Virus record (IMG/VR): IMGVR_UViG_3300029846_000001
DNA: 64,000 nucleotides
DNA from: a virus
Lineage: Duplodnaviria; Heunggongvirae; Uroviricota; Caudoviricetes
Direction: 5' to 3' (one strand)
The notes below the pieces were generated by a model. That model did not search any database. It worked only from the letters and a program-made list of their open reading frames with translations, and was not told the origin of the DNA. This document shows positions 3,401-27,000 of this stretch, piece by piece. Every line of letters begins with the position of its first letter. The first letter of the stretch is position 1. The position numbers and the translations under genes are program-made.

Positions 3401-3519
3401 CTGTTCAAGAACGTCTTGATCAGATGAGGGATCCGTATATGAGAGGAATAAATATCACGCCCAATATGAATGACAAGTTTAGTAAGTTGAACGATTTTTT
3501 GCAGAAAATTTATGGCTGA
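460..3519 (+). CDS. giant hypothetical protein, 1019 aa (virion/structural-associated?)
   Basis: 1019-aa uninterrupted ORF; 8-nt ATGGCTGA start/stop overlap with next giant gene indicates translational coupling; Gly-rich segment GTRGAGGVGVPMAPMDGP. Confidence 0.8.
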   Translation: MASQYSILRQYAPYVSPYNIDLVKDVMMYKQQKVDAAREKIYTQVDYLMGQEIDKPEARAYMEDKMSGVIANINQKFKGVDLSSDGVTRAIQGEISSVLDDTVINAIAGTKEGKRVMKEIESIKQNHPELYSPINEWHALDPYYKWRSDGKAGSRLGGLHYSPYVDYTKEINKLVSDFRKNNEGKKIQTTEYDVKGNPTGGIIEVNVDELTDSQIRNFVSANLSENMRNQMRIEASYMAATNPVFSNPDLVSQYIGSYVERYDRHIGALEAKKKSVGDNKDIIDRIDSQIQEAKNQKAEAKREADMIIASSDPVAAANFVVTNNLFDKMTDAWRYDNTSFERKKDDLYFARLAEDRAQQKFLTDNAKSMVEISLAKEQLAQAKIETEYMRTYGSKMGTESSSGGTRGAGGVGVPMAPMDGPTAINSGTGKIGSVNLANIPYEQLTSSSTERRANLLKLYNSLSPTDRSNIVAASYEEEKTDPGLYANMTPEERIYSYLKNNGGQKNGYFGQGNNRLSEAYDALLLSDSKANGATKAINNITDYQIDNIVTKKNKDIISKVRNAKFMKGNSFINLTDTDDKAGAFLLATAITTGVSDAVGFREYMMDPSRGIDILSAISPSLGAKASAGKLGKNISDAITSENNGSSTGTLALINGMKKLNGDPDFNISDYMTIDKDGDIDLKDYQEGEPLTITQLRYAEKNSRVSDMIAGQMQDEIKMSVSPDQISDKLSQYHYLDSYKRYNWNADSPEKSLQKAQFRRLSGYMAGKVNNLDPTAINAINMDAEIDNGTVRRFLTAQVGSGKNSYVTERVEITNDELLKAGIDPSVEERNYPVDGYKSSFGTCDFVDTGKKEGYSYDKYLIRNGLPRLASKADVKNDLYDIVKVHGSYLKPEEMNVVKTLVDNFIDMSDNISVQLEGMDDRGSREVAVNFYDKRTKNSKNPALLFSDFVPLDPGNDEYADYWNSIHQKCPQYFFVKYVKEAVQERLDQMRDPYMRGINITPNMNDKFSKLNDFLQKIYG

Positions 3520-6500
3520 CAATAATATAGATAGATATAATCCTGCTGCTAAAACCACTTACGAAGATGTGGCAAGGCAAAGGAAATTAGCCGAAGAAGA
3601 GAATTACACTCCGGCTACATTACCAGAGACGACAACGCCTCTGGTTCCTAATTATATGCCTGGTGAAGGTGTGTATGCCCAACCTAAATTTCCGGATTAC
3701 GCATCAAGGATAGCTGCTGTCGAATACGAAGAACCGTATATAGCCAAGGAGATAAGCAACAGCTACTCGGAGGCACTGGCTCGTAACAGCTACAGGGGGG
3801 CTACACCTGCCCCGCCGCCTCTTAATCCCTATGGACCGAAGGTAAGTATCCGTGAAAGTCATCAGATGGGTAATGATGGGGTATGGCGTACAAAATATTC
3901 TAACTATATTCCGGGTATAAACAATGAAGATTATTATGCCAGGAGACAGAGCGGATGGAGTAAGTTTTGGAATGGTGTAGGCAAATTCGCTTTAAAATCC
4001 GCATTGTACGGTGCACAAGGAGTTGTGTCATTGCCTGACAAACTTATCAATATGGCATCTGAGGGAAGTTACAAAGCTGCGTTAAACACTAACATGGATA
4101 AGTTTGTAGGTGATCTTGACCAGCAAATAGACATGCTTCTTCCCCATTATTACAAGAAAGAGGTAGAAGATTATAATTTTGGTCAGAAGCTTTTTAAGGA
4201 TACCGGTAATTTCTTGTGGAATGACGTCCTTGGTAATGGTATGTCTTTTACCGTAGGAGCCATGATATCAGCGTACATGACCGGAGGACTTGGAGTTGGA
4301 TCATTGGGTAATATAGGCGCTAAATTAGGTGGAAGAATCGGAGCTAAGTTAGCAGCAAGGCAAGCTGCCAATAGGGGCATAGGAAGCCTTAAAAGCGTGT
4401 TTAACGACTATGTAAGAAAAGGAGTTGCTACCGGAAGAAATGTAGGGGAGGCGGCTAAGACCATGACGTTGTTGGCTACCAGTGCCGGATTCGAGTCATC
4501 GGTTGAAGCAAATTCTTTTATGAAGCAATCTGAGTCTGATTTCAAGGATTATTATCGTAAGATTTATGGTCGTGATCCCAATGCAGAGGAAATGGCTGTT
4601 TTTCGTAATTCTAATGCTGATGTAGGTAGTGCTATATTTGCCGCCAATATGGGTATCGTAGGATTATCTAACTGGCTTCTTTTTGGTAAGTATATAGGGT
4701 TAGGAGGCAAGGCTATACCAGGGTTGGAAAAGAGGCTCAACAAGCATTTATTTGGATTAGGGACGGAAGTTGCGAAGCCGGGAGAGATGGCTATTAAAAT
4801 AACCAATCCCAATATAGGACAGAAGATAGCAGGCAATGTTTTCAATATCATGAAAAGACCGGTATCTGAAGGCTTATGGGAAGAAGGATCTCAAGGTGCT
4901 GTTCAGAATACGGCTGAGGAATATGTTAAGTCAAGATATGATAATGTCGCCATGAACGGAGCCGTTGATGTTCTTGATGCTATTTCTGAAGGATTTAAAA
5001 AGCAATATACGTCTAAAGAAGGATGGACTGAAATAGGAATCGGTGCTATTATCGGTTCTTTGTTTGGTATGAGAGAAGGCTTCTTTGGGGTGAAAGAGTA
5101 TAGTAATAGTCAGATCTTGCTGGAAAGGCAAGTGAATGAATATAACAAAGCATCTTCTAATCTTAACACGGCGGCTTTGAATACGTTGAAAAAATCAATG
5201 AGTTTAGGGCCTCAAGTTCGTTCCGATGCCCAGTCTATGACTGGTAAGGAGCTTGATGATGCTATGTTTGAAAAGATGTCTATTGACAACCAAATGGGAA
5301 CCTTAGAGGATTCGGCTGAAAATTTCCGGCAGATGATTGATATGATGCCTATTTCGGAAATAGCCGAAGCTAATGGAATGTCTTTGGAAGAGGCAAAGAA
5401 ATACAAGGACTCTATTATTGATAATTATAATAATCGTCTTTCGGATTTCAGATCTGCCCAGAGTTTTGCCGAAGATCTTATAGGTGATGATTCTAAGATT
5501 GAGTTTAGGAAATACGTGGCTCGTAATGCTTTTCTTGGTCTTCAATCGGAATCAAGAATGAAAGACATAGCTTCTGTCATAGAAACGCTTTCGGGGCAGC
5601 CTCGCGTGGCGGATGCTCTAAGTACGTTCTCCCGGCTGTCGGACAGGGCAAGGGAGCGGGCGATGGCTATCCGTGGCATACGGTCAAGAATAGAAGAACT
5701 TGAATCCGAAATAGAAGATCTTGCTACCCGCCCTCGCAACGTAGAAGGGAAAGATCCACAAGCTGAATCCATACAACGAAAAACCAAAGAATTGGAAAGC
5801 CTTAGAACCAATTACAACAATTCGTTGTCTGAGTTATCAACGTTAATAGGAAAAGAGTTTTCGATAGAAGAGCTGGTAAGTAAAACCGAATCTGTTTTAT
5901 CATCTCCTCTTTCTCCCATAAGTTCACAAGATGTGATAGAAGCCTATGATACGCTTGTGGCTTTTGATGATTATTTTAATGTAAAATCAAGACAGGAAAA
6001 GAAGTTTACAGCCAAAGACAAAGCCATGAGATCCTTGGTAAATGAATACCGAAGAAGTTTGATGGACTATAGGAATATGAATAACTTCTTGTCTAAGATG
6101 CTTGATAAAAGATTCTTAGCTGAGGAAAACAGGGGGTTTTCAAAAGCGCTGTCTTCTCTATGGTCTACTCCTTATAAAGGGGATGACAAGGTTCCTGATT
6201 TTGCAGAGTCTAATAAAGTTGGTGAATATGACACTGATGAGGTAGTAGATCAAGCTGTGTCAGAAGGTAAGATTTCGGAAGACGAAGCTTGGACTATCAA
6301 GGCTTTTATGCATGCTCTTGATAAAGTAAGGGAAGATAGGATGAAGGAAGCAGAAGATGATATAAAAGAGTCACCGCTTACGGAGTCTGTATCGGATGAA
6401 GATTATGAGGCTGCTATGGATAATCCTATTATGGTTCCGGCCGTAAGGCAGTCTATAATTGATAAACTATATACAGGTAATGCCGATCTTCTTACTGAGA

Positions 6501-9500
6501 GAGAAAAAGATGTGTATGATAAATACAAACAAGATTTTGATGATTATGTATCGTCTTTGGGTGACAGTCCCGTTAATCTCATAAAATCATTATCTGAAAA
6601 GGCTGATAGGCTTACAAGTCCGAGATCTGTGTATGAGGATAATAAAGCTATTATTGATATGGCTAAATCCAATTTGGAACCAGATCAAAGGAAGGAACTT
6701 GATGATGCTATTTCTTCGTATGTTGATATAATGAACAGACGGGACAAAGGGGAGAAAGTTGACGAAGATAAGCTTGCCGATTCGGTATTTACCATAGAAG
6801 ATCTTGGCCAGGTTGGAAACATCACGGATCTCCTTCCTTATATCGAACAAAACAGGATTATTGATAAAGGTCGTATTTCCGAATCTACGTTAAGTAATTT
6901 TGGGGAGGATGATGCTAATATAGATTCTCTTGTAAATGAATTAGACGAATCTGATAATACGCCGGGAGCCAATATAGATAGCGCCCAGAATCCAGAGACG
7001 TTGATGGTAAGAAGAATCTCCAATGACGGCAATGAAAGGTATGAAATTGCAGGTCTTAGAGCCGATAAATTTATATCTTCTATAAAATCATTGGTTCCTA
7101 TTCAAATAAGCTCTGAAACGAACGCTAATGGTACTAAAAGGTATTCTCTTAACATAGGTGGAGAAACGGCTACTATAATTGAACTGCCTTATCATGCGAG
7201 ATGGTCTATAGACAAAGAATCGGCTCGTGTTCTTAACCGTTACACAGATGTGTCTATTCAGGACGTGGGTAATTCATATTCTTTGGTTTATAAGCGTCTT
7301 GATTCAGACGAATTGGTTCCGTACAGAACAGGTGTTGGATTCGGAGAGAATGAAGTAGATAAAATAGATCAGGAAGCATTATCTTCTTTGAAGAAAGGAG
7401 ATAAGGTTAATCTTGAGATAGATGCAAATGATACCTATAATCAGTCTCTTTTTGCCGAATACAATGATGCTGTTCAGTCCGGTGATAAAAAAAGAATAGA
7501 ATCTGCTGAAAATAAGCTGGTATCCAATATGGTTATCAAGGTCATGAGTGGAAACAGATTCGTTTCTGTTGTAAAAGCTGACACAGGAGGCATAGATGGT
7601 ATAAGTAAGATAAGAAGAACGGCTTTTAACAAGTGGAAGAAGGACGCCGGCCGGTCGGCCACCATCAACGTCGGCACGCATGTTGTTGCCCAGACCCTTC
7701 CTGGAAGACCGGTGTTTAACATGAGAGTAAACGGTCAAGGATATGGTCAGGTAGAAAATCTCCCTATTACCGAAAAAGGAGCTGAAAAAGTATCTGATGT
7801 CGGATATGTATTAAATGGCAAAGTCGTGCTTAAGAACGGATCTAAATACACAGGCTTCCCATTTGCTTATTCTATATTAAATGACAAGGGGAATAATTAC
7901 AAAAATGTAAGAGTTCCGGTAGTTGTCATCAAAGGCAAAAACGGTCTTAATTATCTTTTCCCGGTTAGTCTACGTTCTGTGGAATCAGAGGAAGGAAAGA
8001 AATGGATTTCTTTTATAGATATGCTGCTTGAATCAGGTGACTCTGAATTGTTACAGATGGGTCAAGATGATATACAAGATCTTAATGCGTATCTAACCAA
8101 GTTAGGCCTTGATCCGGCTTCGTATCAAGTATCGTATTTGAATCCTATTTCAGGGCTTAGAAAAGCTCGTGAGGCTATAGAAAAATTATCTACGGTTCCT
8201 GATGTTGTTAAATGGGTAGAAGATGAAAGCAGGAATGTGAAAGACATTGTGATGTCTGAAGTAGAATCTGGAATAGATTTCGAAGGTGAGATGTTTGTCG
8301 CTCCTAAGATCAGGATTCAGTTTGGTAAATCATCTTCCAGACCTAAATCACTTATAGAAGATGATCTCCCTTTCTCCGATGAGGGTAAGACCGTTACTTC
8401 CAAGGAAGATGTGGATATTTACGAAGATGAAATGCCAGAGGAAGACCCTGTCCGGGGGACTCGGCCGGCGCCACCAGCCCAGCCGGCTCCTGCGGCACAA
8501 GCTACGCAGTCCTTACATGGCAAGAAGCGCACCTCCAGAAAAAACTTCTCTCTTATGTTAAACGAAATAGAATCTCATATAGAAAAAGAAGGATTGCCGT
8601 CTTATGCTAATATTTTTGATTTTATAGCAAGGAAGATTGTAGGAGGTGATTTGAGGTTTCTTCGTGAGAGAGGTAATCCTAAAAGCCTTAAGGAAGAAAT
8701 GGGATTAGAACCTAAAGGAACAGTAGGTGATAAAATATCCACTCCTTCTAAAAAGGGAGGTAAGACCTTAGAAGAATATGTTTCTTGGCTTCGTTCTCAA
8801 ACAGATCAGGTGGTGGTTGATTATGTTGGTCCAAGATCTGACGAACAAATTATATCAGAGTTGAAAAACTTTTTGAAATATATTAATTTTGTTCCAAGCA
8901 AGGCTTTGAATTATTCTCTTAGAGTCAATGGCATGGATGCCCTAAAAGAATATGGCACAAAAGAGGAAGTAGAAAAAATGGAATCTGACATCAATAGTTT
9001 GGTTTCTGAAGTTTTGCCTACGGTAGATAATCAAACTGTAGAAGATGTTTCTACTGCAATAGAATTAAATAACCTGCCTGCCATATGGAGACCTATGGAA
9101 AGCCTTGATATGACAAACGAGGAAAAAATAGAGTTTTTGAATAACGTAGCAGATTTCCTTAGCGGCATTCCAGAGTATGATGCTGTTGTGGAGTCTATAG
9201 AGTCAGAATCAGATAATATTTTAAATGATGGAAAAGAAGGAAGTGCAGAAGGCGGTGCAGTACGCGCTGAGGAAGATGGCGATAAAAAGGGAGATGGAAA
9301 AAGAGAAGGACAACCCAGAGATGATGGCAAAGCTGAGGGAGATGTCTATTTACCTGGATCTGAAGAAGGAAGAGTAGATAACTATAAGAAGAACGGAGAT
9401 AAGTTCTCTGATATTGCCGAAGTTACTTTATGGTTACTTAGAAGGGCTGCCGGCATAACCTCTATCCCGGAAGGAGAAGAGGTTTATGTAGAGGGGGATG

Positions 9501-10153
9501 AAGTTAATAGCATTATGACCGATATGGAATCAAGGTACGGGATAGACACCATCAACCACTCGCATACGACTAAGGCTATAAGGGATCTTAACGGCGTATC
9601 AGGTTATAAAGTAGAATACGGCTTAACCTTTTTAACATACGATCCTTTTATTAGAATATCCAATCCAAGGAAAGAATCTAAGGCCGAGAAAGACGAACCT
9701 CGTATATCCGAAGAACCGCTTACTCACATATCAAGGGTAACAACCCCTTATTTCCTGTACGGCGGTGATGAAGCATATACATCTGTTCCGGCTAAGGTAG
9801 AACCTATACCGGAGAAGATAATGGGTCGTAATGGCATTAAATTTGGTATGAGTGTAGTCGAGTTAACCAAATTAGGGTACAAAAAAGCTGGTGGAAACTG
9901 GATATATAAATTCTATATGAACTCAGGTGTGTATGATTTGTATAATATCAGTACCGGTGAAGCGTTTAGGGCAAAACCGAATCTTGGAGTTAAGATAAGT
10001 TCCAGTGCATTCATCCGCTCTTTATCTCAATCTGGTAGAAAAATACAAAATATGATGAGTAATATGAGCCAGGAAGAGATAGACAGGAATAAGAATCTCG
10101 TAGAAGGTTCTGATAATTCGGATTCGATAAATGAGTTAAATAAAGAGTGTTGA
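3512..10153 (+). CDS. giant hypothetical protein, 2213 aa (virion/ejected or tail protein?)
   Basis: 2213-aa uninterrupted ORF; coiled-coil-rich, acidic Gly/Asp-rich tract (AEEDGDKKGDGKREGQPRDDGKAEGD), Pro/Ala linker (RPAPPAQPAPAAQ); size class typical of phage ejected/tail proteins. Confidence 0.85.
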   Translation: MADNNIDRYNPAAKTTYEDVARQRKLAEEENYTPATLPETTTPLVPNYMPGEGVYAQPKFPDYASRIAAVEYEEPYIAKEISNSYSEALARNSYRGATPAPPPLNPYGPKVSIRESHQMGNDGVWRTKYSNYIPGINNEDYYARRQSGWSKFWNGVGKFALKSALYGAQGVVSLPDKLINMASEGSYKAALNTNMDKFVGDLDQQIDMLLPHYYKKEVEDYNFGQKLFKDTGNFLWNDVLGNGMSFTVGAMISAYMTGGLGVGSLGNIGAKLGGRIGAKLAARQAANRGIGSLKSVFNDYVRKGVATGRNVGEAAKTMTLLATSAGFESSVEANSFMKQSESDFKDYYRKIYGRDPNAEEMAVFRNSNADVGSAIFAANMGIVGLSNWLLFGKYIGLGGKAIPGLEKRLNKHLFGLGTEVAKPGEMAIKITNPNIGQKIAGNVFNIMKRPVSEGLWEEGSQGAVQNTAEEYVKSRYDNVAMNGAVDVLDAISEGFKKQYTSKEGWTEIGIGAIIGSLFGMREGFFGVKEYSNSQILLERQVNEYNKASSNLNTAALNTLKKSMSLGPQVRSDAQSMTGKELDDAMFEKMSIDNQMGTLEDSAENFRQMIDMMPISEIAEANGMSLEEAKKYKDSIIDNYNNRLSDFRSAQSFAEDLIGDDSKIEFRKYVARNAFLGLQSESRMKDIASVIETLSGQPRVADALSTFSRLSDRARERAMAIRGIRSRIEELESEIEDLATRPRNVEGKDPQAESIQRKTKELESLRTNYNNSLSELSTLIGKEFSIEELVSKTESVLSSPLSPISSQDVIEAYDTLVAFDDYFNVKSRQEKKFTAKDKAMRSLVNEYRRSLMDYRNMNNFLSKMLDKRFLAEENRGFSKALSSLWSTPYKGDDKVPDFAESNKVGEYDTDEVVDQAVSEGKISEDEAWTIKAFMHALDKVREDRMKEAEDDIKESPLTESVSDEDYEAAMDNPIMVPAVRQSIIDKLYTGNADLLTEREKDVYDKYKQDFDDYVSSLGDSPVNLIKSLSEKADRLTSPRSVYEDNKAIIDMAKSNLEPDQRKELDDAISSYVDIMNRRDKGEKVDEDKLADSVFTIEDLGQVGNITDLLPYIEQNRIIDKGRISESTLSNFGEDDANIDSLVNELDESDNTPGANIDSAQNPETLMVRRISNDGNERYEIAGLRADKFISSIKSLVPIQISSETNANGTKRYSLNIGGETATIIELPYHARWSIDKESARVLNRYTDVSIQDVGNSYSLVYKRLDSDELVPYRTGVGFGENEVDKIDQEALSSLKKGDKVNLEIDANDTYNQSLFAEYNDAVQSGDKKRIESAENKLVSNMVIKVMSGNRFVSVVKADTGGIDGISKIRRTAFNKWKKDAGRSATINVGTHVVAQTLPGRPVFNMRVNGQGYGQVENLPITEKGAEKVSDVGYVLNGKVVLKNGSKYTGFPFAYSILNDKGNNYKNVRVPVVVIKGKNGLNYLFPVSLRSVESEEGKKWISFIDMLLESGDSELLQMGQDDIQDLNAYLTKLGLDPASYQVSYLNPISGLRKAREAIEKLSTVPDVVKWVEDESRNVKDIVMSEVESGIDFEGEMFVAPKIRIQFGKSSSRPKSLIEDDLPFSDEGKTVTSKEDVDIYEDEMPEEDPVRGTRPAPPAQPAPAAQATQSLHGKKRTSRKNFSLMLNEIESHIEKEGLPSYANIFDFIARKIVGGDLRFLRERGNPKSLKEEMGLEPKGTVGDKISTPSKKGGKTLEEYVSWLRSQTDQVVVDYVGPRSDEQIISELKNFLKYINFVPSKALNYSLRVNGMDALKEYGTKEEVEKMESDINSLVSEVLPTVDNQTVEDVSTAIELNNLPAIWRPMESLDMTNEEKIEFLNNVADFLSGIPEYDAVVESIESESDNILNDGKEGSAEGGAVRAEEDGDKKGDGKREGQPRDDGKAEGDVYLPGSEEGRVDNYKKNGDKFSDIAEVTLWLLRRAAGITSIPEGEEVYVEGDEVNSIMTDMESRYGIDTINHSHTTKAIRDLNGVSGYKVEYGLTFLTYDPFIRISNPRKESKAEKDEPRISEEPLTHISRVTTPYFLYGGDEAYTSVPAKVEPIPEKIMGRNGIKFGMSVVELTKLGYKKAGGNWIYKFYMNSGVYDLYNISTGEAFRAKPNLGVKISSSAFIRSLSQSGRKIQNMMSNMSQEEIDRNKNLVEGSDNSDSINELNKEC

Positions 10154-10155
10154 GT

Positions 10156-10698
10156 ATGAGAAGGAGATACGAAGATGTTTCAGGTCTTGTTCAGTATCAG
10201 TTGAAGACCAATCAGCAGGGGAATATAGAGGTTTATGTTGATGACAGGTTTGTTGGAAACGTAAGTGAAGGAGTCTGCAATTGGAAGGATATTGAATACA
10301 AGAGCAAAGTTACTATATCTTTGAAAGGAGTCGAGGATAAGGCTAAAACTTTAAGTAAAAGAGTCGGTCCCTATTGTCACATTTATAGCATATTTGGAGG
10401 AAATGAATCTTATCATGAAGGTCCGGATAGTAATATAAAAAAGAGTCCGGTTACCACCTTTATAATGTATTGTTATAAAAATGGGGATATTACAACTACC
10501 ACCACTTATACTAAAAATTTATCTGGAACTCTTCAGATAGGTAAAACACAATTGACTATCAATTACAAACAAAGTAAAAGTCAGTCTTTTTCTGGTGGTG
10601 ATAAAGATTATGTAACATCCGTATCTGATTTCCCTTTTGTTACTGGTCCAGGAGATAATAGCGTTGAGTTTGAAGGAGAGGGAAGATTAATAGTTTAA
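10156..10698 (+). CDS. small protein with MRRRY N-terminus (MRRR-leader family member 1)
   Basis: ATG 3 nt after stop of 2213-aa gene; ORF track lists GTG start at 10147; N-terminus MRRRYEDVSG shared with three other genes. Confidence 0.6.
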   Translation: MRRRYEDVSGLVQYQLKTNQQGNIEVYVDDRFVGNVSEGVCNWKDIEYKSKVTISLKGVEDKAKTLSKRVGPYCHIYSIFGGNESYHEGPDSNIKKSPVTTFIMYCYKNGDITTTTTYTKNLSGTLQIGKTQLTINYKQSKSQSFSGGDKDYVTSVSDFPFVTGPGDNSVEFEGEGRLIV

Positions 10699-10774
10699 AC
10701 AAAGGCTTCGCATTATGAAATAGAAGTTTCATAATTTCTATTTTTATAGTATTTTGTCTAAAATATTTATCACT

Positions 10775-10801
10775 ATGGGTGTCAAATGTCAGATAGAAAA
10801 A
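10775..10801 (+). repeat. direct repeat of the first 27 nt of the 752-aa gene (atgggtgtcaaatgtcagatagaaaaa; second copy 11425-11451)
   Basis: Identical 27-mer at 10775 and 11425; at 10775 it is fused to the copy of the 3' end of the 2213-aa gene, a recombination junction. Confidence 0.8.
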
Positions 10802-10802
10802 T

Positions 10803-10866
10803 AAGAATCTCGTAGAAGGTTCTGATAATTCGGATTCGATAAATAAGTTAAACAAGGAGTGTTGAG
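10803..10866 (+). repeat. direct repeat: near-identical copy of the last 64 nt of the 2213-aa gene (10090-10153), preserving the reading frame (NKNLVEGSDNSDSINKLNKEC*) but preceded by TAG
   Basis: aagaatctcgtagaaggttctgataattcggattcgataaat(g/a)agttaaa(t/c)aa(a/g)gagtgttgagtatgagaaggagat present at 10090-10170 and 10800-10880. Confidence 0.85.
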
Positions 10867-10867
10867 T

Positions 10868-11398
10868 ATGAGAAGGAGATTTTTTAATGCTGCGGATAAT
10901 TTTATGGGAGGATGTTATAATAAGTTATCCAATGAAGATATAAAAAGGCTTGGAGGAAAAAGACCTTATGTATGTCAGTTTAATAAAATTCATATACATA
11001 TAGGACCTGTATTAAAAGATCATGATTCTGATGTTAGTTACATAATGTTTAATAGTAATTGGAATCAAGGTGGTTATGAATCTATGGTTTATAATCATAG
11101 CAATAATGGTATTTTTATATTAGGTGAAAACAAAATTGGTAACATAGAAGATCATATACAAGATCTAACATATTGGTACGAATATGATCCAAGCATTAAT
11201 GAAAATTATTGTTATTTTTATTATGAGGCTAATAACAGCGGAAATGCTATCAAGTTGAATGGTGAGTTTGGTGATACCAGTACTGTTTTCAACATTCCCA
11301 GCTTGGAAGTCACCACTCTTCGTGATGGCAGTTTGAGTTTTCCGGAGATTTATATAGAAGGAATTTGGGATCCGTCATTGTATAAGTCGGTTTTATAA
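10868..11398 (+). CDS. small protein with MRRRF N-terminus (MRRR-leader family member 2)
   Basis: ORF (track start 10859 is GTG; ATG at 10868); N-terminus MRRRFFNAAD; preceded by duplicated 3' end of the upstream giant gene, so a tandem paralog or cassette of 10156-10698. Confidence 0.6.
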   Translation: MRRRFFNAADNFMGGCYNKLSNEDIKRLGGKRPYVCQFNKIHIHIGPVLKDHDSDVSYIMFNSNWNQGGYESMVYNHSNNGIFILGENKIGNIEDHIQDLTYWYEYDPSINENYCYFYYEANNSGNAIKLNGEFGDTSTVFNIPSLEVTTLRDGSLSFPEIYIEGIWDPSLYKSVL

Positions 11399-11424
11399 TT
11401 AACTTTGCAAAAAAGTTAATTACA

Positions 11425-13683
11425 ATGGGTGTCAAATGTCAGATAGAAAAAAAGGAAAATGAAATAAAACGGGTTAAGGCTCCTAACGGGGAGCCTTCCG
11501 TTCTTTACGAAAGTGCTTTAAAAGTATTAGGAAACAGCGAGCGGGCCCTTCAGGTATGGGCTAAGGCTTACACTCCTGGTTTTTTGTCGTATTACGGTCA
11601 TTGGAATAACCCGGCTCCAGGGGAGATGTTTAACACCGATCCCAATGGCGAACCTCTTTTAGAAGATGTGCTGTCGTATATGAAGCGTCAGACTTATTTT
11701 GCTGATCCTTTAACGGCTCAGGATGTTAAGGATGTAAGGGATTTCCTTTTGTCTACTCATTATTTTTTCAATGCGTCTTCATTGTCTAATGCTATTCTCT
11801 TCGATTTTTATGTAGATGGCAGTTTGATACTGAATGAGCAGAAATTAAGGAGATCCGGTTTGTATGATGAAACAGAAATAAGTCGTATTTTATCCGATCC
11901 TTCTGTTTTAAACGAGGTTTCGACTTCCATGAGAAAGTTAATAGATTCTTCTATTAACGAACATGATAGGGAAAAGGATAATTATTTTATGTCTGTTGAC
12001 TATCAGTATGGTCCTATTGTTTACAAGGAGGGAGTGTTTAACCAATTTGGTAAAAAAGTACCATATAATCCTTCTGAGCTTTATTGGGCTATGGGCAAAA
12101 CAGTAGCCGGCATAAAAAACTTTTCTGAATTTTCATCTGCTTTTGAATCGTTGAGAAACTCATACCCTGAACTGGTTGAGAAATTCGTTTCTGATAAAGA
12201 ATTTGCCGAATCTATGTTTGATGAGTTCTCATCTACGAATAAGATTCCGGTAATAAACATAGAAGGGGATGATGTGGTAGAAGGCAAGAGAAGATCCTTG
12301 TCTAAGCTACAAGATCTGTCTTATTACAATCCTGGCAAAATAGAGTTCCTAAGAGCTCGTATATCAGCTTATTTACATAGGGCTAATGCCGACACCGAAT
12401 CCGATTTAAGAAGCATGATATGGGATATAGAAGAGGCTTGTACGTGGTTTGGCATAGATATAATAGGGACATCGGAAACTTATGATGGCACAGAAGAATC
12501 TTTGAATAAGATAGATAATTTGATGCTGGATCTTGATATTTATGTGGCCAGGCATAATGATGTAAATTATGCTCCAACGCTGGCATCTTCTATAGATGAT
12601 GTTCTTGGTGATAGTACAGACTATTATTTTGGATTATTGCCGGAGTATATGGATAATTTGAATATCGTTTATTCTGAATCCGATATAGACCCAGTAGAGG
12701 CATTTGAGAAACATTCATTGCTTAAGGTAGGAGATAATCTATATCAAAGGATCAGCAAAGATGATCTTAACGAGATGTATCAAATATCAACAGTATTAGC
12801 CAAGCACAACCTAACTCATTTTTCTACTAAAATATATCCTGAATCTTGTTTTAAGAACGGCGTTTTGGATAAAGAGAAAGTACGGAACGTAGATGATAAT
12901 ACGCTCATGGCTTCCATTAAAAAATACGTCAGATCGTTCATGGATTCTCAGAACACAGAGGACATGATAATGACCAGGATGGCGTTTGGGCACCCTGCGG
13001 TACTTGACGTTCCTTACGTGGATGTGGATCGGGAGTATAGTCGATACATGAACAAAAAACAAGATAGCGAAAACCCATTATCCTTATTCGATTTATACCA
13101 ATCTTACCTTGACAACAAACTCCATAAAACAAAATTATATGATAATGCCTATAAGTATCTTGACTTCAAACCTGGTCCATCTTTGGGTCTTATTTCTGAT
13201 GATCCTGATATTTTGAAATCAATAGAATTATCTTTATCTGGAAAAGACAGGTTGATGTTGTTTGATTATAGCATGACCAGTACCGACCCTTCTTTATCAG
13301 AATTGTTTTATTTGGAGAGGTATGACCCTTCGTATGCTGGGAATGATTTTGAACACTATTTTTACACCAGGCACCCGTATTTGTTAAAAGAAAAATCGGG
13401 TTCTAATATCGTAGAGCAAGATGGTGTTATAACAGCAGAAGGTATTTATGATAATTTTATAAGAGTAGGTAATAAGATATGGTCTAAAGTAAGCGAGAGT
13501 AGTTCCGGCTCTATCTACCAAAATCTGACAGGAACCGAATCGGAGGTGAAATACGATTCTACTCAGAAGGCTAAGACGGTAGAAACTGATTACGCTCCAT
13601 ACCAAAACAGATCTGGCTTGACGCAAGACATGACCGTAAGCAAGTCTGAATTGGATGATCTTAACAAATTGGAATGCAGGTAA
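11425..13683 (+). CDS. hypothetical protein, 752 aa (structural-block protein)
   Basis: 752-aa ORF, co-directional with the giant genes, followed by a hairpin terminator. Confidence 0.75.
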   Translation: MGVKCQIEKKENEIKRVKAPNGEPSVLYESALKVLGNSERALQVWAKAYTPGFLSYYGHWNNPAPGEMFNTDPNGEPLLEDVLSYMKRQTYFADPLTAQDVKDVRDFLLSTHYFFNASSLSNAILFDFYVDGSLILNEQKLRRSGLYDETEISRILSDPSVLNEVSTSMRKLIDSSINEHDREKDNYFMSVDYQYGPIVYKEGVFNQFGKKVPYNPSELYWAMGKTVAGIKNFSEFSSAFESLRNSYPELVEKFVSDKEFAESMFDEFSSTNKIPVINIEGDDVVEGKRRSLSKLQDLSYYNPGKIEFLRARISAYLHRANADTESDLRSMIWDIEEACTWFGIDIIGTSETYDGTEESLNKIDNLMLDLDIYVARHNDVNYAPTLASSIDDVLGDSTDYYFGLLPEYMDNLNIVYSESDIDPVEAFEKHSLLKVGDNLYQRISKDDLNEMYQISTVLAKHNLTHFSTKIYPESCFKNGVLDKEKVRNVDDNTLMASIKKYVRSFMDSQNTEDMIMTRMAFGHPAVLDVPYVDVDREYSRYMNKKQDSENPLSLFDLYQSYLDNKLHKTKLYDNAYKYLDFKPGPSLGLISDDPDILKSIELSLSGKDRLMLFDYSMTSTDPSLSELFYLERYDPSYAGNDFEHYFYTRHPYLLKEKSGSNIVEQDGVITAEGIYDNFIRVGNKIWSKVSESSSGSIYQNLTGTESEVKYDSTQKAKTVETDYAPYQNRSGLTQDMTVSKSELDDLNKLECR

Positions 13684-21048: not shown

Positions 21049-24000
21049 ATGGTATCAACGTGTATTATTAAAAGAGATAATAAAAAGAAAGTTGTTTCTG
21101 TCTCTACCAGATCAGGGGACAGGTCTATGTTGTTTGATAAGATAGCATCTATTCCTCTTATGGAGAACAGGGAACGGGCTACTACTGTTTTTAAAACCGT
21201 ATTTTCCAACAAGTTCTTAAAGGCTTTTGGCGACTGGAGAAAGAGAGTGCCTATCAACAAACAGGCTTATAATAAGGTAAAATCCAACATCGATCTTATC
21301 CCAGAAGCCTACAGAGAAAGGGTGCTGGATAAGGCTTCTAAGATGAGTAACCCTGTTCTTGTGTCAAAATCAGATGCACCTTATGAAATCCGAGAATCGG
21401 GCTTTGGATTTTACAGCCAAGATCTGGGTGATAATATTATGTTGGTAGATGCTATGGTCCCGTCAAGTATTTCCGTACCGGAAGAACCAGGAATAGACGC
21501 CGGGCAGTATTTACAAGATGCTATATCTTCGGACTTCACTCCCGTATCTGTGGTACAGGATAAGGGTGTTAATTATATGGTTATAAAAGACGGTCTTAAG
21601 ATATTTAGCCCAGAGGAGTTACCAGAAACAGATTCTAATCCTGTGGGTGTAACGTATCAGACCGGAGAGCCTCGTTTGTTTTTCATGAACGATCGTAGTC
21701 AATTATTTGAAGATTACGGAGAAGCTCTTCGCTCTGGCGGGAATGATATCAGAATAGGGTTCTTATCAGGCACCGTTCAGGAATCTGCCGTGGATGGCGT
21801 GGCAGACATTACTTACAAAGCTGGAAAGTATGTTCTTAATAATCTCAAATCTTTTATACCGGTCATGACCGCTTCTGCTTCTACTTCTTTATCAACAAAA
21901 GGTGGTATAATTAACTACCTTATAAAGAAAGGTCTTTTGTCCGGATCTAAGATATTCGATTCTGAAACAAGAAGCTATTATCTTACAGGAGAAGGTCATA
22001 CAGGACAAATTAGACTTTTCAATTCAGCCTTATCATACACCGAGCTCCGTAATCATTTTGGTTCCGATGTTTCCATGAACGACCAAGGTATGATAACCAT
22101 AAGCTCGTTGGATAATAGTAAGGTAACTATGAGACTCGCCACCGGAGGAACGGAAAGGGTTAGCAAAGAGCAGATAAAGAACGATCTTAAGTCGGGAAGA
22201 TACAATGAATTGGACGCCAAGTACGATCATTTTGATGCGCTTGTAGTTTCATTCATATTAGAAGACAACGATCTTTACGCTGATACTAAAGCTAAGATCG
22301 TATCAGATTATAGCAGGCAGGAACGTGATCAACGAAATTCTATTGTCGAGATACTGAAAACTCTTGGCGTTAGTGTCATAGGTATGACCGATTATATAGA
22401 GAAGTACCAAACCAAATACGGGCATGAACCTTCTGCTAAGGCATTGGCGGATATTGCCAATAACGTAATAGCAGTTGGTGAAGATGCTACTTTATCTGAT
22501 TTAGTAGAAGAAACAGCCCACTTCCTTGTAGAGGCATACAGAGATCAGAATGCTGTTGAGGCTGTTCTGCAAGATGTAGAAGGTACGGAAGAGTGGAACC
22601 AGTATGCAGGTCAGTATTATAATACATACGGTAAAGCGTATGAAGGAGCTGAGCTTGATAATGCTGTTAGGAGAGAAATTCTTGGAAAGATCCTCGCCAG
22701 GGAGATGCAGACCGGCACAGCACAGGCGCCGGTAGAGCCCACCTCCTTCCTGGGGCGCGTCCGGCGGCTTTTCTCTGGAATAGTAAGCTGGCTTAAATCA
22801 GCTTTATCAACCCAAAGACAAGATTTGAATAACGTTATTAAAAACATTCGTGATCTTGCCATTACTGACATAGATAAAGGATTTGACACTTCTCTGTTAA
22901 AGGATAATGACTTTACATTATACTCCCTTTCTTCTATGAACAAGAACAAGTTTCTTGAGTCTAAGATCAGATCGCTAAGAAAAACATTAAGAGACTTACG
23001 TCAGATAAGCTCTGATAGGGCTGTAACTACGTCTATGACCCTTGCGCAGCTTAAGACCATAGAAGATAAGATAAATAAGGTAGAGACCGAAATAGACAAG
23101 AATGAGATGGCGGCTGCCATGAACAGCATGATCTCTACAGCCGAAGCTCAGGTCAGATACTTAAGCAATGTGGTGAACACCATCCTTCATGGTGATACCA
23201 AAGACGGCAAGCTTCATTTCAATACCAATGATCGAAAGAACGTAGATATTATCAACAATCAGGTTCTTCCGATCATGAACGATCTTCGAGGATATATCCG
23301 TAACAGAAGTACCGAATTTGATGAACGTGAAAAGCAGGATTATACAAATAGGATCAATACCGTCATTGCCGACATCAATGGTATTCAGTCTGATATTAAA
23401 TCAGTACAAGACCTTGATGAAAGCACGTTGCTTGATAAGTTAATGAACGAACTTCATGTGCCGGCAGATAAGGTAAAGAGAGTAAAAGAATTTTTCGACA
23501 AGGTTCAACACGATGTTTCTTGGATAAGTAGGTGGTTTGGTATATTAGAGCATTCTTCCAGTCCGTTCAATAACGCTCTTGGAGCTATGATTGCCAAAGA
23601 CAATTACAATGCGATGGTGAATGCCCAGCCCGCCATATCCGATTTCCTGGCATATGCGAAAAAGCATGGTTTTAACAAATCTGAATTTGAAAAACTGCTT
23701 CAGAAAGTAGATGGCAAAACTTCTAATTACCTTCGTAGTGCTCTTGATATGGCTAAATACGATCGTAATAAGAAGCTGGCGCAGATGCGAGCGTTTGCGA
23801 CTGCCATGAACATAGAGATATCAGAAGAAGAAATTGGTGATGTGGTTGACAATAACCGTAATTACGTATTTAAAAGAGAAGTAGTTGACAAGGATGGAAA
23901 TACGGTTACTGAAAACGCTAAATTCAAACCATCGTCTGATAGAGTTAATACCGATATTTTTACCATCGAGCAGGAAAAGATCTATACAGAGCAGATGGAA

Positions 24001-27000
24001 AAGTGGGATGCTGAAAATTCGGAACTGGAATTTAGCGAAAGTTATGCCACAAGAATGGAATCCATATACAAAAAGGCTGAAGAAGAATTAGGGCATCCGG
24101 TTTCTCAAACAACCAAAGAATACCTTAATGCTCTATCCAGGCAAAAACGGATATTGAGGCAGCCTTTTATTGATAGCGGTGGTAATTTTGATGAGGTTGC
24201 CTATTTTAAAAGCAGCAATTACGAAGAAGAAGGACTGCTTCGTAAACAACGTAAGGAAGCAGCTTCAGAATACATATATGTAGGAACCAGGAGAGTGGAA
24301 AAAACCGGCGACCAACTTAAGATGGCTAAAGAAATACAAGCTATAAATGAAGTTTGGAGAAAGGAATCAAATAATGTTACCAATGCCGTATCAGAATCGT
24401 TTTTGCAAAAATTAAGAACGATTCAGAGCGAGTCGGGAGGAGAAGCTGCGCTGAAGACACTTATGTTGGGAGGTCACCTGTCGTTCAATGATCGGTTTTG
24501 GAATGAAGTAGAATCGGAACAGTCGGCGCGTACCGAATCAAATAACAAGGCTTCGTATCTTAAAATGGCGCATGATATCATTAGTTCTACGACAAGTGAT
24601 AGAGATGCGACTGACGTGGATTCGATTGTGAAAGATATAGAAAAAAATAAGGCCATTATCAAGGAAATAATCGGAAACAACCGAGATGTGGCTGATATCG
24701 GAGAAATTAACGAAGCGACATTTACCTCATCTGAAAGAGATGCTTTTAGGGCCGCATCTGAAGCTATTGAAGCTGATTACGCTATCTTAATAGATTATGC
24801 TAAGATGGTGGGTCTTGAAGATATTGATAAGTACCTTACTAAAAGCAGTAAGGCCGAAAACGAAGTAAATCAGTCTTATTTAAATGCTCTTGCTGACTCC
24901 AAGGAAGTGGAATGGAAGTTCGTACAACGTCATACTACGGCGAAGAAAGCAAAAAGGATTCAGGCTTTAAGGGATAAGCTGTTTAAGGCTGCTGATAACC
25001 GATATCTGTTTACCGTATCTGAAACCAACTACCTGTCAGAAAAGCTTGGTATAAGCAAAGAATTAGACGGTAGAGATTTCAGGAATGCTGTTAATGCTAA
25101 GATGGCCAGCTTGTTTTTAAATAATACAAGAGAAGAGGGCATAGAAGAGACCAATGCTATTGTTAATGAATTTGCCAGGAGCCAGGTCTTTTCGTACTAT
25201 AAACGCATGGCGCCTACCGGATATGCGGCCATGATCGACAAAATAGGTCGAGGTGAGATAGATGTGGCGCAGATGGTTAAGGACGTACAAAACGGTACAT
25301 CCACCCAAGATTATGGCATGGACATATCGTACCTGTCTTTCGACCCTGCAAGGGCATGGGTGGCTGAATCTGAAGCCGAAAATAGCGGTCGTAATCCTGA
25401 TTATGTAAAAGATCATGGGTATGGTCATCGCATGCCTAAGAAAAGCCTGTATCGTGATGAATCGTATCTCAATGACTTTGGTATCAAGTATGATGCTGAC
25501 GGTAATGAAGTTGCTACTAAAAACGTAGAGCAGTGGAATATGATTCAAAAACTCAAGGAAATAAAAAGACAATCCCTTGATCTATACAAAGAGCAGAGTC
25601 CCAATTTGTATGCTATTCCACAGATATCAAAACAAGACATAGAACGTATGGAAGGATTGGGTATTAACTTCAAAAATACGGTTCGTAATTTTGTATCAGA
25701 TCTGTGCCTGGACAGAGTAGACGATTCTCTATATGGTAAGACCAGGCAAGGGGAAGTATATGATCCGGAAGACAGACTTAGGTCTATACCTAAATACTAC
25801 ATATATGAGTTGGAGAACCAAGATGATGTATCTCACGATTTTGGCTACTCTTATTCGATGCTTATGATGCAGTCATCGTTATATAACGAAAAGCAGAAGT
25901 CTATAGAGCTTGCCCAAGGACTGGAGCAGATGTTACTGAATAAACAATTTGAAGGCGGTAAGAAGGCTGAAGCAACCCAAGCATATCAGATGTTCAGGGA
26001 CTTCTTCAACGATCATTATTATGGCATTAGGATGAACACCAAAAAACTTACGGTGAACATCGGAGGATATACGGTAGACCTTACAAGAATTATGATGGCT
26101 GTTGAAAGATTTATGTCGGTTATGAACTTGGCACTGTCTCCGTTTGTGGCAGCTACCGGCGCCCTGACAGGTCATATCAACCTCATCATGGAATCTGCCG
26201 TAGGACAGTATATAAGCAAAGACTCCCTTAAATACGCATCGGCTGAGTTTTCACGTCTTGCGCCATCTTGTATAGCAGAAACCGGAGACATAGATAGGAA
26301 AAGCAAATTATATGTCATAGGTGAGAGAATGGGGATATTCAATATCCGAAATCGTATGTATGGTGCCGGATACAATAGAGCAGCCAGGACCTTAATGCGT
26401 TCGCCTATGTATGCTTTTATGGAAATCCTGAACTACCCTCTTGATCCGCAGGTTATGATTGCTACTATGGACAATGTTCGTTATTACAAAGGCCGGTTCT
26501 ATACGTTCCAAGATTTCAAGATGGAAAAAGAACGTAATAAAGAACAGAGTACCATAAAAAGAGAATGGAACGCATTAAAAGATCGTACTTTATGGAGTAT
26601 GGTAGATGTCGTGGATGGGAAGGTGGTTGTAAAGCCCGGATCGGGTGTTACTGTTGAGGAAGTTGAAACCCAGATGGCTATAACCAGAAATCAGGTTCGT
26701 AGCTTGTCACAGATATGTAACGGATCTTTGAATGAAGAAAACCGAACTGCCGCATCGCGCAACTGGATAGCCAGGTTCATGACCGCCCACCGAGGATGGT
26801 TGGTGCTGGCGGCTCAACGTCTGTGGAAAAGACGTGGCTTCAATTTCCAGACAATGCAAGAAGAGGAAGGGTTGTCAATTACGTTAAAGAATATGATAGC
26901 CAAAACATTTAGCCTGGCTTCCGAGTCTGGTATGAAAAACATCATAGATGCCTGGAACGAAAATAAAGACAATATGAATGAGGTAGAAAAAACTAATCTC

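What the first reader, a model, noticed from the sequence alone, without database searches (positions are those of the whole stretch)
10090..11451. Recombination footprint: the 3' end of the 2213-aa gene and the 5' end of the 752-aa gene are duplicated around paralogous cassette genes
The last 64 nt of the 2213-aa gene, still in frame, and the first 27 nt of the 752-aa gene are repeated and fused at 10775-10866. They lie between the two MRRR-family paralogs (10156-10698 and 10868-11398). The arrangement is: gene3-end, cassette1, [gene6-start + gene3-end], cassette2, gene6-start. Homologous recombination between the repeats would delete either cassette or generate tandem arrays, a mechanism for swapping or amplifying a variable cargo or tip gene.
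Basis: seen in the sequence. Interest (0 to 1): 0.55.

Follow-up and report, generated by a model that had tools for sequence, protein, structure and literature searches.

The report
Two alternative phage genes joined in tandem
In this crAss-like gut phage, a variable slot between two conserved virion genes normally holds one of two unrelated small genes; here a past recombination accident left both side by side, and relatives show the slot is repeatedly reshuffled and hit by TnpB insertion elements.

Summary
An 81-nt copy of the gene-3 end (10088-10168 vs 10800-10880, 96%) and an exact 29-nt copy of the gene-6 start (10775-10803 vs 11425-11453) bracket two small genes; chance expectation is 0. 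It is not an assembly artefact: the same junction occurs in 11 other independently assembled contigs.

The two genes are not paralogs. BLASTP and profile-profile comparison align only the N-terminal MRRR. About 90 related genomes usually carry one gene or the other. The window is an F2-type and an F1-type arrangement joined by one microhomology-level illegitimate event (junction J1, single origin). A second, independent junction (J2) gives the reverse order. One F1 allele was later swapped by crossovers at the conserved borders.

Across more distant relatives the slot holds 0, 1, 2 or 4-5 genes and is a hotspot for three TnpB elements.

Unexpectedly, unrelated slot genes all start with MRRR[F/Y]. 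The tag is conserved at protein level and also marks small genes next to other giant virion genes. Its function is unknown, and so are the functions of F1 and F2.

The footprint is an ordinary kind of phage mosaicism, unusually well documented. The tag, and a possible TnpB-guided break at the gene-6 start, are the parts worth following up.

The parts
3512..10153 (+). Gene 3: 2213-aa giant virion protein; its 3' end forms the left conserved border of the slot
   Evidence: ORF. PHROG 32390 hit. The ortholog in csAssE-Sib is annotated 'structural protein'. The C-terminus ..NK[EPD]C* is conserved down to relatives with 43% gene-6 identity.
10088..10168 (+). Repeat A, original copy: last 64-66 nt of gene 3, stop, GT spacer, and ATG + MRRR codons of the cassette
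10156..10698 (+). Cassette 1 = allele F2 (180 aa here, 192 aa in relatives; premature TAA at 10696-10698)
   Evidence: 98% aa identity to the single cassette of csAssE-Sib. ORFan, close relatives only. dN/dS 0.30.
10713..10734 (+). Hairpin TTATGAAA-TAGAAG-TTTCATAA at the 192-aa F2 stop; insertion site of TnpB element IS-B in relatives (between TTTC and ATAA)
   Evidence: Sequence. Insertion boundaries in L078 vs L001.
10775..10803 (+). Repeat B, junction copy: first 27-29 nt of gene 6; reads MGVKCQIEK* with a stop created by the join
10800..10880 (+). Repeat A', junction copy of the gene-3 tail plus the MRRR start of cassette 2. The join lies at about 10801-10804 in an A-run, with AGATAGA microhomology. 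It carries a J1-private G>A change (AATAAG) and an F1-linked AAAC variant
10868..11398 (+). Cassette 2 = allele F1 (176 aa), the commoner single-cassette allele
   Evidence: ORFan: only its own cluster among 1.84e9 representatives. dN/dS 0.18.
11393..11425 (+). F1-type ('alpha') intergenic hairpin TTATAATTAACTTT/AAAGTTAATTACAA. In relatives TnpB element IS-A inserts right at its 3' edge, at the gene-6 ATG
   Evidence: Inverted repeat I4. IS-A boundaries.
11425..13683 (+). Gene 6: 752-aa conserved protein of unknown function. Its first 29 nt are repeat B (original copy) and form the right border of the slot
   Evidence: Full-length in all 80 relatives. N-terminus MG[VLI][KA]CQ conserved to 43% identity.
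28307..28756 (+). Third MRRR-tagged ORF of the window (149 aa, MRRRFENIKT), downstream of the 2140-aa giant virion gene (21049..27471)
   Evidence: Ortholog in Sib at 110324.
27685..27741 (+). Decayed MRRR-tagged gene (MRRRFQIGMGG.. then stop); intact 205-aa ortholog in Sib at 109702

Best explanation
The region is a hyperplastic accessory-gene slot between two conserved virion-module genes of a crAss-like gut phage (csAssE-Sib lineage, about 150 kb). In the population the slot normally holds one of two unrelated, lineage-restricted genes: F1 (176 aa) or F2 (192 aa). Both sit between the same borders. The left border is the 3' end of gene 3 plus the translation start and the MRRR[F/Y] N-terminus. 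The right border is the 5' end of gene 6. The window carries both genes because of one illegitimate, microhomology-level join (shared AGATAGA, then an A-run). The join linked about nt 25-27 of gene 6 in an F2-type genome to nt -64 of gene 3 in an F1-type genome, presumably during co-infection or within replicating concatemers. The result is F2-[B|A']-F1. This junction (J1) arose once and has been inherited and spread. Ordinary homologous recombination at the conserved borders later exchanged the downstream F1 allele. The direct repeats (81 nt and 29 nt) should allow reversion to either single-cassette form. Shown: the repeats, the population polymorphism, the single origin of J1, an independent second junction, and the allele swap bounded by the borders. 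Inferred: the two-genome crossover scenario, the deletion potential of the repeats, and any function of the cassettes.
For: Repeats are real and non-random. csAssE-Sib has F2 alone with an uninterrupted F2-to-gene-6 sequence identical to the window up to the join. Eight architectures occur among 80 close relatives. J1 is identical in 8 IMG/VR and 3 metagenome contigs. A' in J1 carries the AAAC tail variant, seen only upstream of F1 in single-cassette genomes (6/56 vs 0/28), plus a private G>A in 9/9 J1 copies. That indicates a two-parent event with a single origin. J2 (F1-J2-F2) has a shorter A copy lacking both variants, so it is an independent event. The F1 divergence block (5-14 mismatches per 100 nt) starts after A' and ends at B, while F2+J1 differ by 0-4 per 100 nt. 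The 169-nt J1 segment is 100% identical while flanks differ by 1-8%. Cassette state is mixed within 1%-divergence flank clusters. F1 and F2 are genuine genes (dN/dS 0.18 and 0.30) but are unrelated to each other. The slot holds 0, 1, 2 or 4-5 genes in more distant relatives.
Against: No reads were available, so junction support in the window's own sample is not shown directly. Direction is inferred from the truncated gene fragments at the junction, not observed. The window's flanks are closest to an F1-only genome upstream (L030) and an F2-only genome downstream (L003). This is the opposite of a naive single-crossover product, so further recombination after the join must be assumed. No arrays of three or more units and no F1-J-F1 or F2-J-F2 forms were found, so recombination between the short repeats may be infrequent.
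Confidence: 0.8

Rival explanations
1. RNA-guided break as the trigger (this would add to the best explanation rather than replace it). In about 12 of 90 relatives a TnpB element (IS-A) sits exactly at the gene-6 start. By the IS200/IS605 rule its guide is the sequence flanking its right end, i.e. repeat B. In a mixed infection, TnpB from an IS-A-carrying phage would cut IS-free genomes about 20 nt into gene 6. Mis-repair of that break onto the gene-3 tail of another genome copy would create the B|A junctions.
For: Three Pfam-confirmed TnpB genes lie in the slot of relatives. The IS-A right end abuts (ATG)GGTGTCAAATGTCAGATAG; the left flanks are ATTAT, ACTAT and TTTAT-like, resembling the TTTAT TAM of ISGst2 TnpB. 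The donor joint, TAM plus RE flank, is the documented TnpB target (PMC10055086). Two independent junctions (J1, J2) both end the B copy at nt 25-27 of gene 6. That is within a few nt of a cut 15-21 nt from the TAM, the distance I recall for ISDra2 TnpB (own knowledge, not checked here). Both junction B copies are preceded by TAM-type variants that are also seen at occupied IS-A sites. The commonest empty site has ACAAT and is never occupied.
Against: The window has no TnpB element. There are only two events, so the coincidence (roughly 3% if breaks were spread uniformly over about 150 nt) is weak statistics. The break lies in an A7 homopolymer, which is itself prone to slippage and template switching. 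The retained B copy is 1-6 nt longer than the predicted cut would leave. Rfam found no omega-RNA. TAM, guide and cut site are inferred by analogy, not measured.
Confidence: 0.2
2. Assembly artefact: a mixed F1/F2 strain population was mis-joined by the assembler.
For: F1-type and F2-type strains clearly co-exist in human gut data. No reads were available for the window.
Against: The junction sequence is novel and the two parents share only about 7 nt at the join, far below any assembler k-mer. An identical junction occurs in 11 other contigs from different studies and assemblers, with diverged flanks and 80-342x coverage. J1 also carries a private mutation.
Confidence: 0.02
3. Intragenomic tandem duplication of one cassette, followed by divergence into two paralogs.
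For: Similar length (176 vs 180-192 aa), both predicted beta-rich, shared MRRR start.
Against: No similarity beyond residues 1-4 by BLASTP or hhalign, while the flanking repeats are 96-100% identical. Both alleles exist alone in many genomes. The A' copy carries an F1-parent-specific variant. The structure models were too poor (pLDDT 32) to test for a shared fold.
Confidence: 0.03
4. A programmed cassette-switching system (integron-, shufflon- or homing-like) with dedicated sites and an enzyme.
For: Conserved borders around variable genes; a four-gene array of MRRR-tagged genes in L100; an HNH endonuclease gene 7 kb downstream.
Against: No recombinase or integrase next to the slot. No attC-like or inverted repeats at the borders. 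Only two junction types exist in very large collections. The borders are simply the coding ends of the neighbouring genes.
Confidence: 0.05

Closest known systems
Hyperplastic regions and PeSL-mediated modular shuffling in T4-type phages (Arbiol et al. 2010, PMC2839356; Comeau et al. 2014, PMC4122927)
   Same: Non-essential ORFan genes between conserved core genes are inserted, deleted and replaced by recombination at short conserved border sequences. Closely related phages differ by such cassettes.
   Different: Here the borders are the coding ends of the flanking genes plus a protein-level N-terminal tag, not promoter/stem-loop cassettes. No promoter or terminator excess was found, though the scan covers sigma-70-type promoters only. 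No mini-circles were tested.
T-even internal-protein (IP) locus with a shared capsid-targeting N-terminal sequence (own knowledge: Repoila, Tetart, Bouet and Krisch 1994; Mullaney and Black 1996; not checked in the library)
   Same: A polymorphic locus where unrelated small proteins share only a short N-terminal tag and lie in the virion-protein module. Alleles differ between close relatives.
   Different: The tag sequence (MRRR[F/Y]) is different and only 5 residues long. Packaging into virions and proteolytic removal of the tag are untested here. The phage is crAss-like, not a T4-like myovirus.
IS200/IS605-family TnpB elements acting as RNA-guided homing nucleases (Meers et al. 2023, PMC10055086)
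   Same: Relatives carry TnpB-only elements with OrfB_IS605 and TNB domains, inserted after a TTTAT-like motif. The vacant site (TAM + right-end flank) is the expected TnpB target and coincides with repeat B.
   Different: No TnpA was seen. The window has no TnpB element. No omega-RNA model matched. Any role in making the junctions is inferred.
Phage morons / mosaic accessory genes (own knowledge: Juhala et al. 2000; Hendrix et al.)
   Same: Dispensable extra genes sit between conserved neighbours; presence varies among relatives.
   Different: No autonomous promoter/terminator is evident. The genes share the upstream gene's end as their translation-initiation context, together with a common N-terminal tag.
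crAss-like virion cargo module (Bayfield et al. 2023, PMC10172136)
   Same: The slot lies among genes for giant virion proteins, comparable in size to the packaged, ejected RNAP-associated proteins of PhicrAss001 (155-277 kDa). csAssE-Sib is annotated with ring, muzzle and adaptor proteins.
   Different: Homology of gene 3 or gene 6 to specific PhicrAss001 cargo proteins was not tested. Small MRRR-tagged proteins are not described there.

Membership tests
Tandem duplication producing paralogs | The duplicated units are homologous along their whole length | tested here: not met
   Only the borders (81 nt, 29 nt) are repeated. The cassette bodies show no similarity (BLASTP E 0.55; hhalign aligns residues 1-6 only).
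Hyperplastic / accessory-gene slot of a phage genome | Variable gene content between conserved flanking genes across related genomes | tested here: met
   Eight architectures among close relatives. The slot holds 0, 1 or 4-5 genes, ANT-domain genes or TnpB in relatives with 43-76% gene-6 identity.
Hyperplastic / accessory-gene slot of a phage genome | Content is dispensable | tested here: met
   L097/L098 have a 27-nt spacer and no gene. About 22% of F1 copies and 14% of F2 copies are frameshifted or truncated, while gene 6 is always intact.
PeSL-type regulatory cassette borders | Strong promoter plus terminator stem-loop at each cassette border | tested here: inconclusive
   Hairpins follow both cassettes. 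The consensus scan found 5 promoter-like sites vs 7.7 expected, and no terminator in the intergenic spaces. Bacteroidota-type promoters are not covered by the tool.
Integron-like gene cassette array | Integrase gene and attC-type imperfect inverted repeats at cassette ends | tested here: not met
   No Pfam or PHROG recombinase in the adjacent genes. No inverted repeats at the borders.
IS200/IS605 TnpB element (insertions in relatives, not in the window) | TnpB with OrfB_IS605 (RuvC) and Cas12f1-like TNB domains | tested here: met
   All three proteins exceed the Pfam cut-offs for PF01385 and PF07282.
IS200/IS605 TnpB element (insertions in relatives, not in the window) | Insertion 3' of a fixed 4-5-nt TAM without target-site duplication; the same element at several sites | tested here: met
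   IS-A is found at two loci with left flanks ATTAT, ACTAT and TTTAT(A). IS-B and IS-C occur at several loci with conserved ends. Empty sites are scarless. Exact ends are ambiguous by 1-3 nt.
IS200/IS605 TnpB element (insertions in relatives, not in the window) | Omega-RNA at the 3' end whose guide matches the right-end flank; cleavage of the vacant site | not testable with these tools
   Rfam has no match at gathering threshold. Cleavage needs experiments.
N-terminal targeting-tag protein set (T4 CTS-like) | Unrelated proteins share a short N-terminal motif conserved at protein level | tested here: met
   Eleven distinct genes start with MRRR[F/Y], with synonymous Arg-codon variation and unrelated upstream DNA. 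In Sib only 1 RRR[FY] lies outside N-termini in about 48,000 ORF residues.
N-terminal targeting-tag protein set (T4 CTS-like) | Tagged proteins are incorporated into virions and the tag directs this | not testable with these tools
   Needs virion proteomics and tag-swap experiments. The only support is genomic position next to giant virion genes.

The most novel reading that the evidence does not exclude
MRRR[F/Y] is a short N-terminal address tag that marks otherwise unrelated small proteins for a common fate. The most plausible fate is incorporation into the virion as exchangeable cargo delivered with the giant ejected proteins, as with the capsid-targeting sequence of T4 internal proteins. 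The slots next to the giant virion genes would then be plug-in sites where crAss-like phages swap such effectors. Because the tag codons and the neighbouring gene ends supply the homology, any tagged gene can be exchanged or stacked. TnpB elements that use the slot border as their guide target may add double-strand breaks that accelerate this exchange.
Probability: 0.2. Interest if true: 0.75.

Novelty: new variant of a known kind. Interest (0 to 1): 0.5.

Why it matters
crAss-like phages are the most abundant viruses of the human gut, yet their strain-level variation is poorly understood. This locus gives a clean, population-backed example of how two non-homologous accessory genes compete for, and occasionally share, one slot. 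The recombination joints are mapped to the nucleotide. If the MRRR[F/Y] tag proves to be a targeting signal, it would identify a new class of exchangeable phage effectors directly from sequence. It would also offer a handle for loading foreign proteins into crass-type virions. If TnpB guides really aim at slot borders, this would be a natural case of RNA-guided homing shaping phage mosaicism.

Tried and rejected
(1) Structure prediction of F1 and F2 from shallow alignments gave pLDDT 31.7 and 31.9. Both models are unusable, so no fold searches were run.

(2) Pfam and PHROGs gave no hits for F1, F2 or gene 6.

(3) Homolog searches for F1 and F2 found only close relatives. An exhaustive HMMER profile search of 1.84e9 representatives with F1 found only its own cluster and fragments.

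(4) Rfam at gathering threshold on three TnpB-bearing loci found nothing.

(5) The promoter/terminator scan showed no excess.

(6) The literature search for 'csAssE' returned only irrelevant hits. Searches for MRRRF/MRRRY returned nothing relevant.

(7) I searched for genome pairs with near-identical flanks (<=0.3% divergence over 1.5 kb each side) but different cassettes. None were found. The population is too mosaic, so exchange is shown by mixed 1%-divergence clusters and by the bounded divergence block instead.

(8) I considered that J2 derives from J1 by a 33-nt deletion plus reshuffling. I rejected this because J2's gene-3 tail copy lacks both J1-specific variants, and each junction type is strictly tied to one gene order.

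(9) I considered a Tat or lipoprotein signal for the MRRRF tag. I rejected it by inspection: F2 and several others have no hydrophobic segment after the tag.

(10) The first flank alignment timed out and was re-run with faster settings.

Full report
OBSERVATION

An 81-nt stretch at 10088-10168 recurs at 10800-10880 with 96% identity. It comprises the last 64-66 nt of the 2213-aa gene, its TGA, a GT spacer and ATG AGA AGG AGA T. The first 29 nt of the 752-aa gene (11425-11453) recur exactly at 10775-10803. Each core occurs exactly twice in the 64-kb window, against 0 in 100 shuffles. The layout is: gene-3 end, cassette 1 (10156-10698), [gene-6 start | gene-3 end], cassette 2 (10868-11398), gene-6 start.

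One detail needs correcting. The gene-6-start copy reads MGVKCQIEK and stops at a TAA created by the join. The gene-3 tail copy keeps an open frame, but in another phase and without a start codon. So nothing is fused in frame.

THE CASSETTES ARE NOT PARALOGS

BLASTP between the two products gives E = 0.55. Profile-profile comparison of their families aligns only residues 1-6, at 1% probability. The shared MRRR lies inside repeat A.

Both are nevertheless real genes. Intact alleles show a median dN/dS of 0.18 (F1, the window's cassette 2) and 0.30 (F2, the window's cassette 1). Both are ORFans:
- no Pfam or PHROG family matches either;
- word-indexed searches find only close relatives;
- an exhaustive HMMER scan of 1.84 billion representatives with the F1 profile finds only its own cluster and fragments.

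AlphaFold models were unusable (pLDDT about 32), so no fold-based inference is offered.

GENOMIC CONTEXT

The only GenBank relative is phage csAssE-Sib (OR575929, 151 kb, human gut). Its annotation uses crassvirus virion terms: ring, muzzle and adaptor proteins, BACON domains, a DGR. The window encodes three giant virion proteins (1019, 2213 and 2140 aa). In PhicrAss001, proteins of this size class are packaged cargo that is ejected into the host (PMC10172136). The slot therefore lies inside the virion/cargo module.

POPULATION EVIDENCE

csAssE-Sib has F2 alone. Its sequence runs uninterrupted from F2 into gene 6 and matches the window up to the join. Eighty IMG/VR relatives with 94-100% gene-6 identity show eight architectures:
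- F1 alone: 41 or more;
- F2 alone: 15, plus 3 frameshifted;
- F1 then F2: 6;
- F2 then F1: the window and L065;
- a cassette plus a TnpB gene: about 12;
- partial deletions.

Targeted scans of 2.9 million viral contigs found just two junction geometries. J1 is the window type, always in the order F2-J1-F1, in 8 contigs. J2 is always in the order F1-J2-F2, in about 7 contigs. Two scans of 241 million metagenome records found no intermediate geometry and three more J1 contigs from other studies, at 80x and 342x coverage. This rules out an assembly artefact: the junction k-mers exist in neither parent type, and homology at the join is only about 7 nt.

ORIGIN OF THE JUNCTIONS

J1 joins ...CAGATAGAAAAA (gene 6, nt about 25-27) to TAAGAATCTCG... 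(gene 3, nt -64). The two parental sequences share AGATAGA and a few further bases.

The gene-3 tail copy in J1 carries an AAAC variant. In single-cassette genomes this variant is seen only upstream of F1 (6/56, against 0/28 upstream of F2). It also carries a G>A change present in all 9 J1 copies and nowhere else. J1 was therefore made once, from an F2-type left parent and an F1-type right parent.

J2 joins the same A-run of gene 6 to TTCGATAAATGAG... (nt -31 of gene 3). It lacks both J1 variants. Together with the strict link between junction type and gene order, this makes J2 an independent event.

LATER HOMOLOGOUS EXCHANGE

Among J1 contigs, F2 and the 169-nt junction segment are 98-100% identical. 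F1, however, comes in two alleles only 91% identical to each other. The divergent block begins just after A' and ends at B, so F1 was replaced by crossovers in or next to the conserved borders.

Cassette state is also mixed within flank clusters at 1% divergence. Rearrangement is frequent: an in-frame F1::F2 chimera (P0036), internal in-frame deletions and read-through into IS ends all occur.

THE SLOT IN DISTANT RELATIVES

Gene-6 homologs reach down to about 40% identity. Between the giant-gene ortholog and the gene-6 ortholog these genomes carry:
- nothing, only a 27-nt spacer (L097/L098);
- F1 disrupted by a TnpB element (L096);
- a different 152-aa ORF (L103/L104);
- alternative ANT-domain genes (L101 vs L102);
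- four or five genes (L099/L100).

The slot content is thus dispensable and highly plastic.

TWO UNEXPECTED FEATURES

The first is the MRRR[F/Y] tag. The unrelated slot genes all begin with this motif: F1, F2, the 152-aa ORF, four consecutive genes in L100 and an inverted one in L099. The Arg codons vary synonymously and the upstream DNA is unrelated. The motif is therefore selected at protein level and is not merely part of the DNA repeat.

In the window the only other MRR-initiated ORF is at 28307 (149 aa). A decayed one lies at 27685. Both are just downstream of the 2140-aa virion gene. In the complete Sib genome exactly four genes start this way, all beside giant virion genes. Only one RRR[F/Y] occurs elsewhere in about 48,000 ORF residues. 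I found no literature on this tag. The closest analogue I know is the capsid-targeting sequence shared by polymorphic T-even internal proteins (own knowledge). A targeting role here is a hypothesis, not a result.

The second feature is that the slot is a hotspot for three different TnpB-only IS200/IS605-type elements, confirmed by Pfam. They insert at three sites within about 300 nt, and they also occur elsewhere in relatives but not in the window. Element IS-A sits exactly at the gene-6 ATG. Its left flanks (ATTAT, ACTAT, TTTAT-like) resemble the TTTAT TAM of a characterised TnpB, and the sequence flanking its right end is repeat B. By the published rule, that sequence is the guide target at vacant sites (PMC10055086).

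Both independent junctions break the gene-6 copy at nt 25-27. That is within a few nucleotides of where such an enzyme would be expected to cut. This suggests, but does not show, that TnpB-guided breaks seeded the illegitimate joins. The alternative is that the A7 run is simply slippage-prone. With only two events I rate the TnpB idea at about 0.2.

COMPARISON WITH KNOWN SYSTEMS AND VERDICT

The footprint belongs to the known class of phage mosaicism at hyperplastic regions. PeSL-mediated shuffling in T4-type phages (PMC2839356) is the best-documented analogue. Here, however, the borders are coding ends plus an N-terminal tag rather than promoter/terminator cassettes.

It is not a paralog-generating duplication. 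It is not an integron-like array, since there is no integrase and no attC-like repeats. And it is not a programmed switch, since only two junctions exist in very large collections.

I rate interest as moderate. The footprint itself is ordinary but unusually well resolved. The MRRR[F/Y] tag and the TnpB hotspot are new leads.

Noticed in passing
Relatives: L027:4595-6000 (IS-A, + strand), L078:4716-5953 (IS-B, - strand), L037:4641-5987 (IS-C, - strand), L096:2449-3672; equivalent window positions about 11424/11425, 10730/10731 and inside F1: Three different TnpB-only IS200/IS605-type elements insert within about 300 nt of this slot in about 14 of 90 relatives. Some come with adjacent deletions of cassette sequence (L007, L037, L096). 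The same elements occur at other sites 2-8 kb downstream in relatives. The window has none.
   Followed up: partly
window 28307-28756 and 27685-27741; csAssE-Sib record positions 63285, 109702, 110324; L100:1086, 1749, 2269, 3064; L099:2112 (- strand); L103:3489: Unrelated small ORFs all begin with MRRR[F/Y], with synonymous codon variation. They lie beside giant virion genes. L100 has four such genes in a row. This is a protein-level N-terminal tag of unknown function, and I found no literature on it.
   Followed up: partly
window 10880-10885 (T6 run at F1 codons 5-6) and the A5 run near F1 codon 31: About 8 of 69 F1 copies in relatives have T7 or T5 at this run, giving an immediate stop or frameshift. 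Three more copies have +1 in an A-run. Overall about 22% of F1 copies and 14% of F2 copies are disrupted, while gene 6 is always intact. This could be real on/off variation or relaxed selection; sequencing error is not excluded.
   Followed up: partly
window 10696-10698: The window's F2 has a premature TAA where relatives have GAA, removing the last 12 residues (180 vs 192 aa).
   Followed up: yes
Sequence immediately 5' of every gene-6 start copy, e.g. window 11420-11424 (ACAAT) and 10770-10774 (ACTAT): The 5 nt before GGGTG come in the variants ACAAT (33 genomes, never occupied by IS-A), ATTAT and ACTAT (both found at occupied IS-A sites) and ATAAT. ACAAT might be a TAM-escape variant.
   Followed up: no
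Protein P0036 (115 aa); also P0021, P0027, P0053, P0059: P0036 is an in-frame chimera of the F1 N-terminus (residues 1-63) and the F2 C-terminus. The others are in-frame internal deletions of F1 or F2, or F2 reading through into a TnpB element end.
   Followed up: partly
L101:2906-3934 vs L102:2951-3934: In a lineage with 47% gene-6 identity, the same slot holds alternative anti-repressor-like genes (KilA-N+ANT vs Bro-N+ANT). These do not carry the MRRR tag.
   Followed up: no
window 18298-19518: A 406-aa HNH endonuclease gene (PHROG 119, E 2e-66) lies 7 kb downstream of the slot, between the anti-repressor region and the 2140-aa virion gene. I did not check whether it is present in relatives or acts as a homing endonuclease.
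   Followed up: no
window 460-3519 (1019-aa protein), residue 674: The protein contains a DKDGD motif, reminiscent of the DxDGD catalytic motif of RNA polymerases. It may be part of a crass-type virion RNAP. Not tested.
   Followed up: no
window 9400-9700 and 11700-12400 compared with L089, L091 and others: Sharp blocks of 25-70% mismatch alternate with near-identity inside gene 3 and gene 6 among close relatives. This shows dense mosaic recombination within these large genes as well.
   Followed up: no
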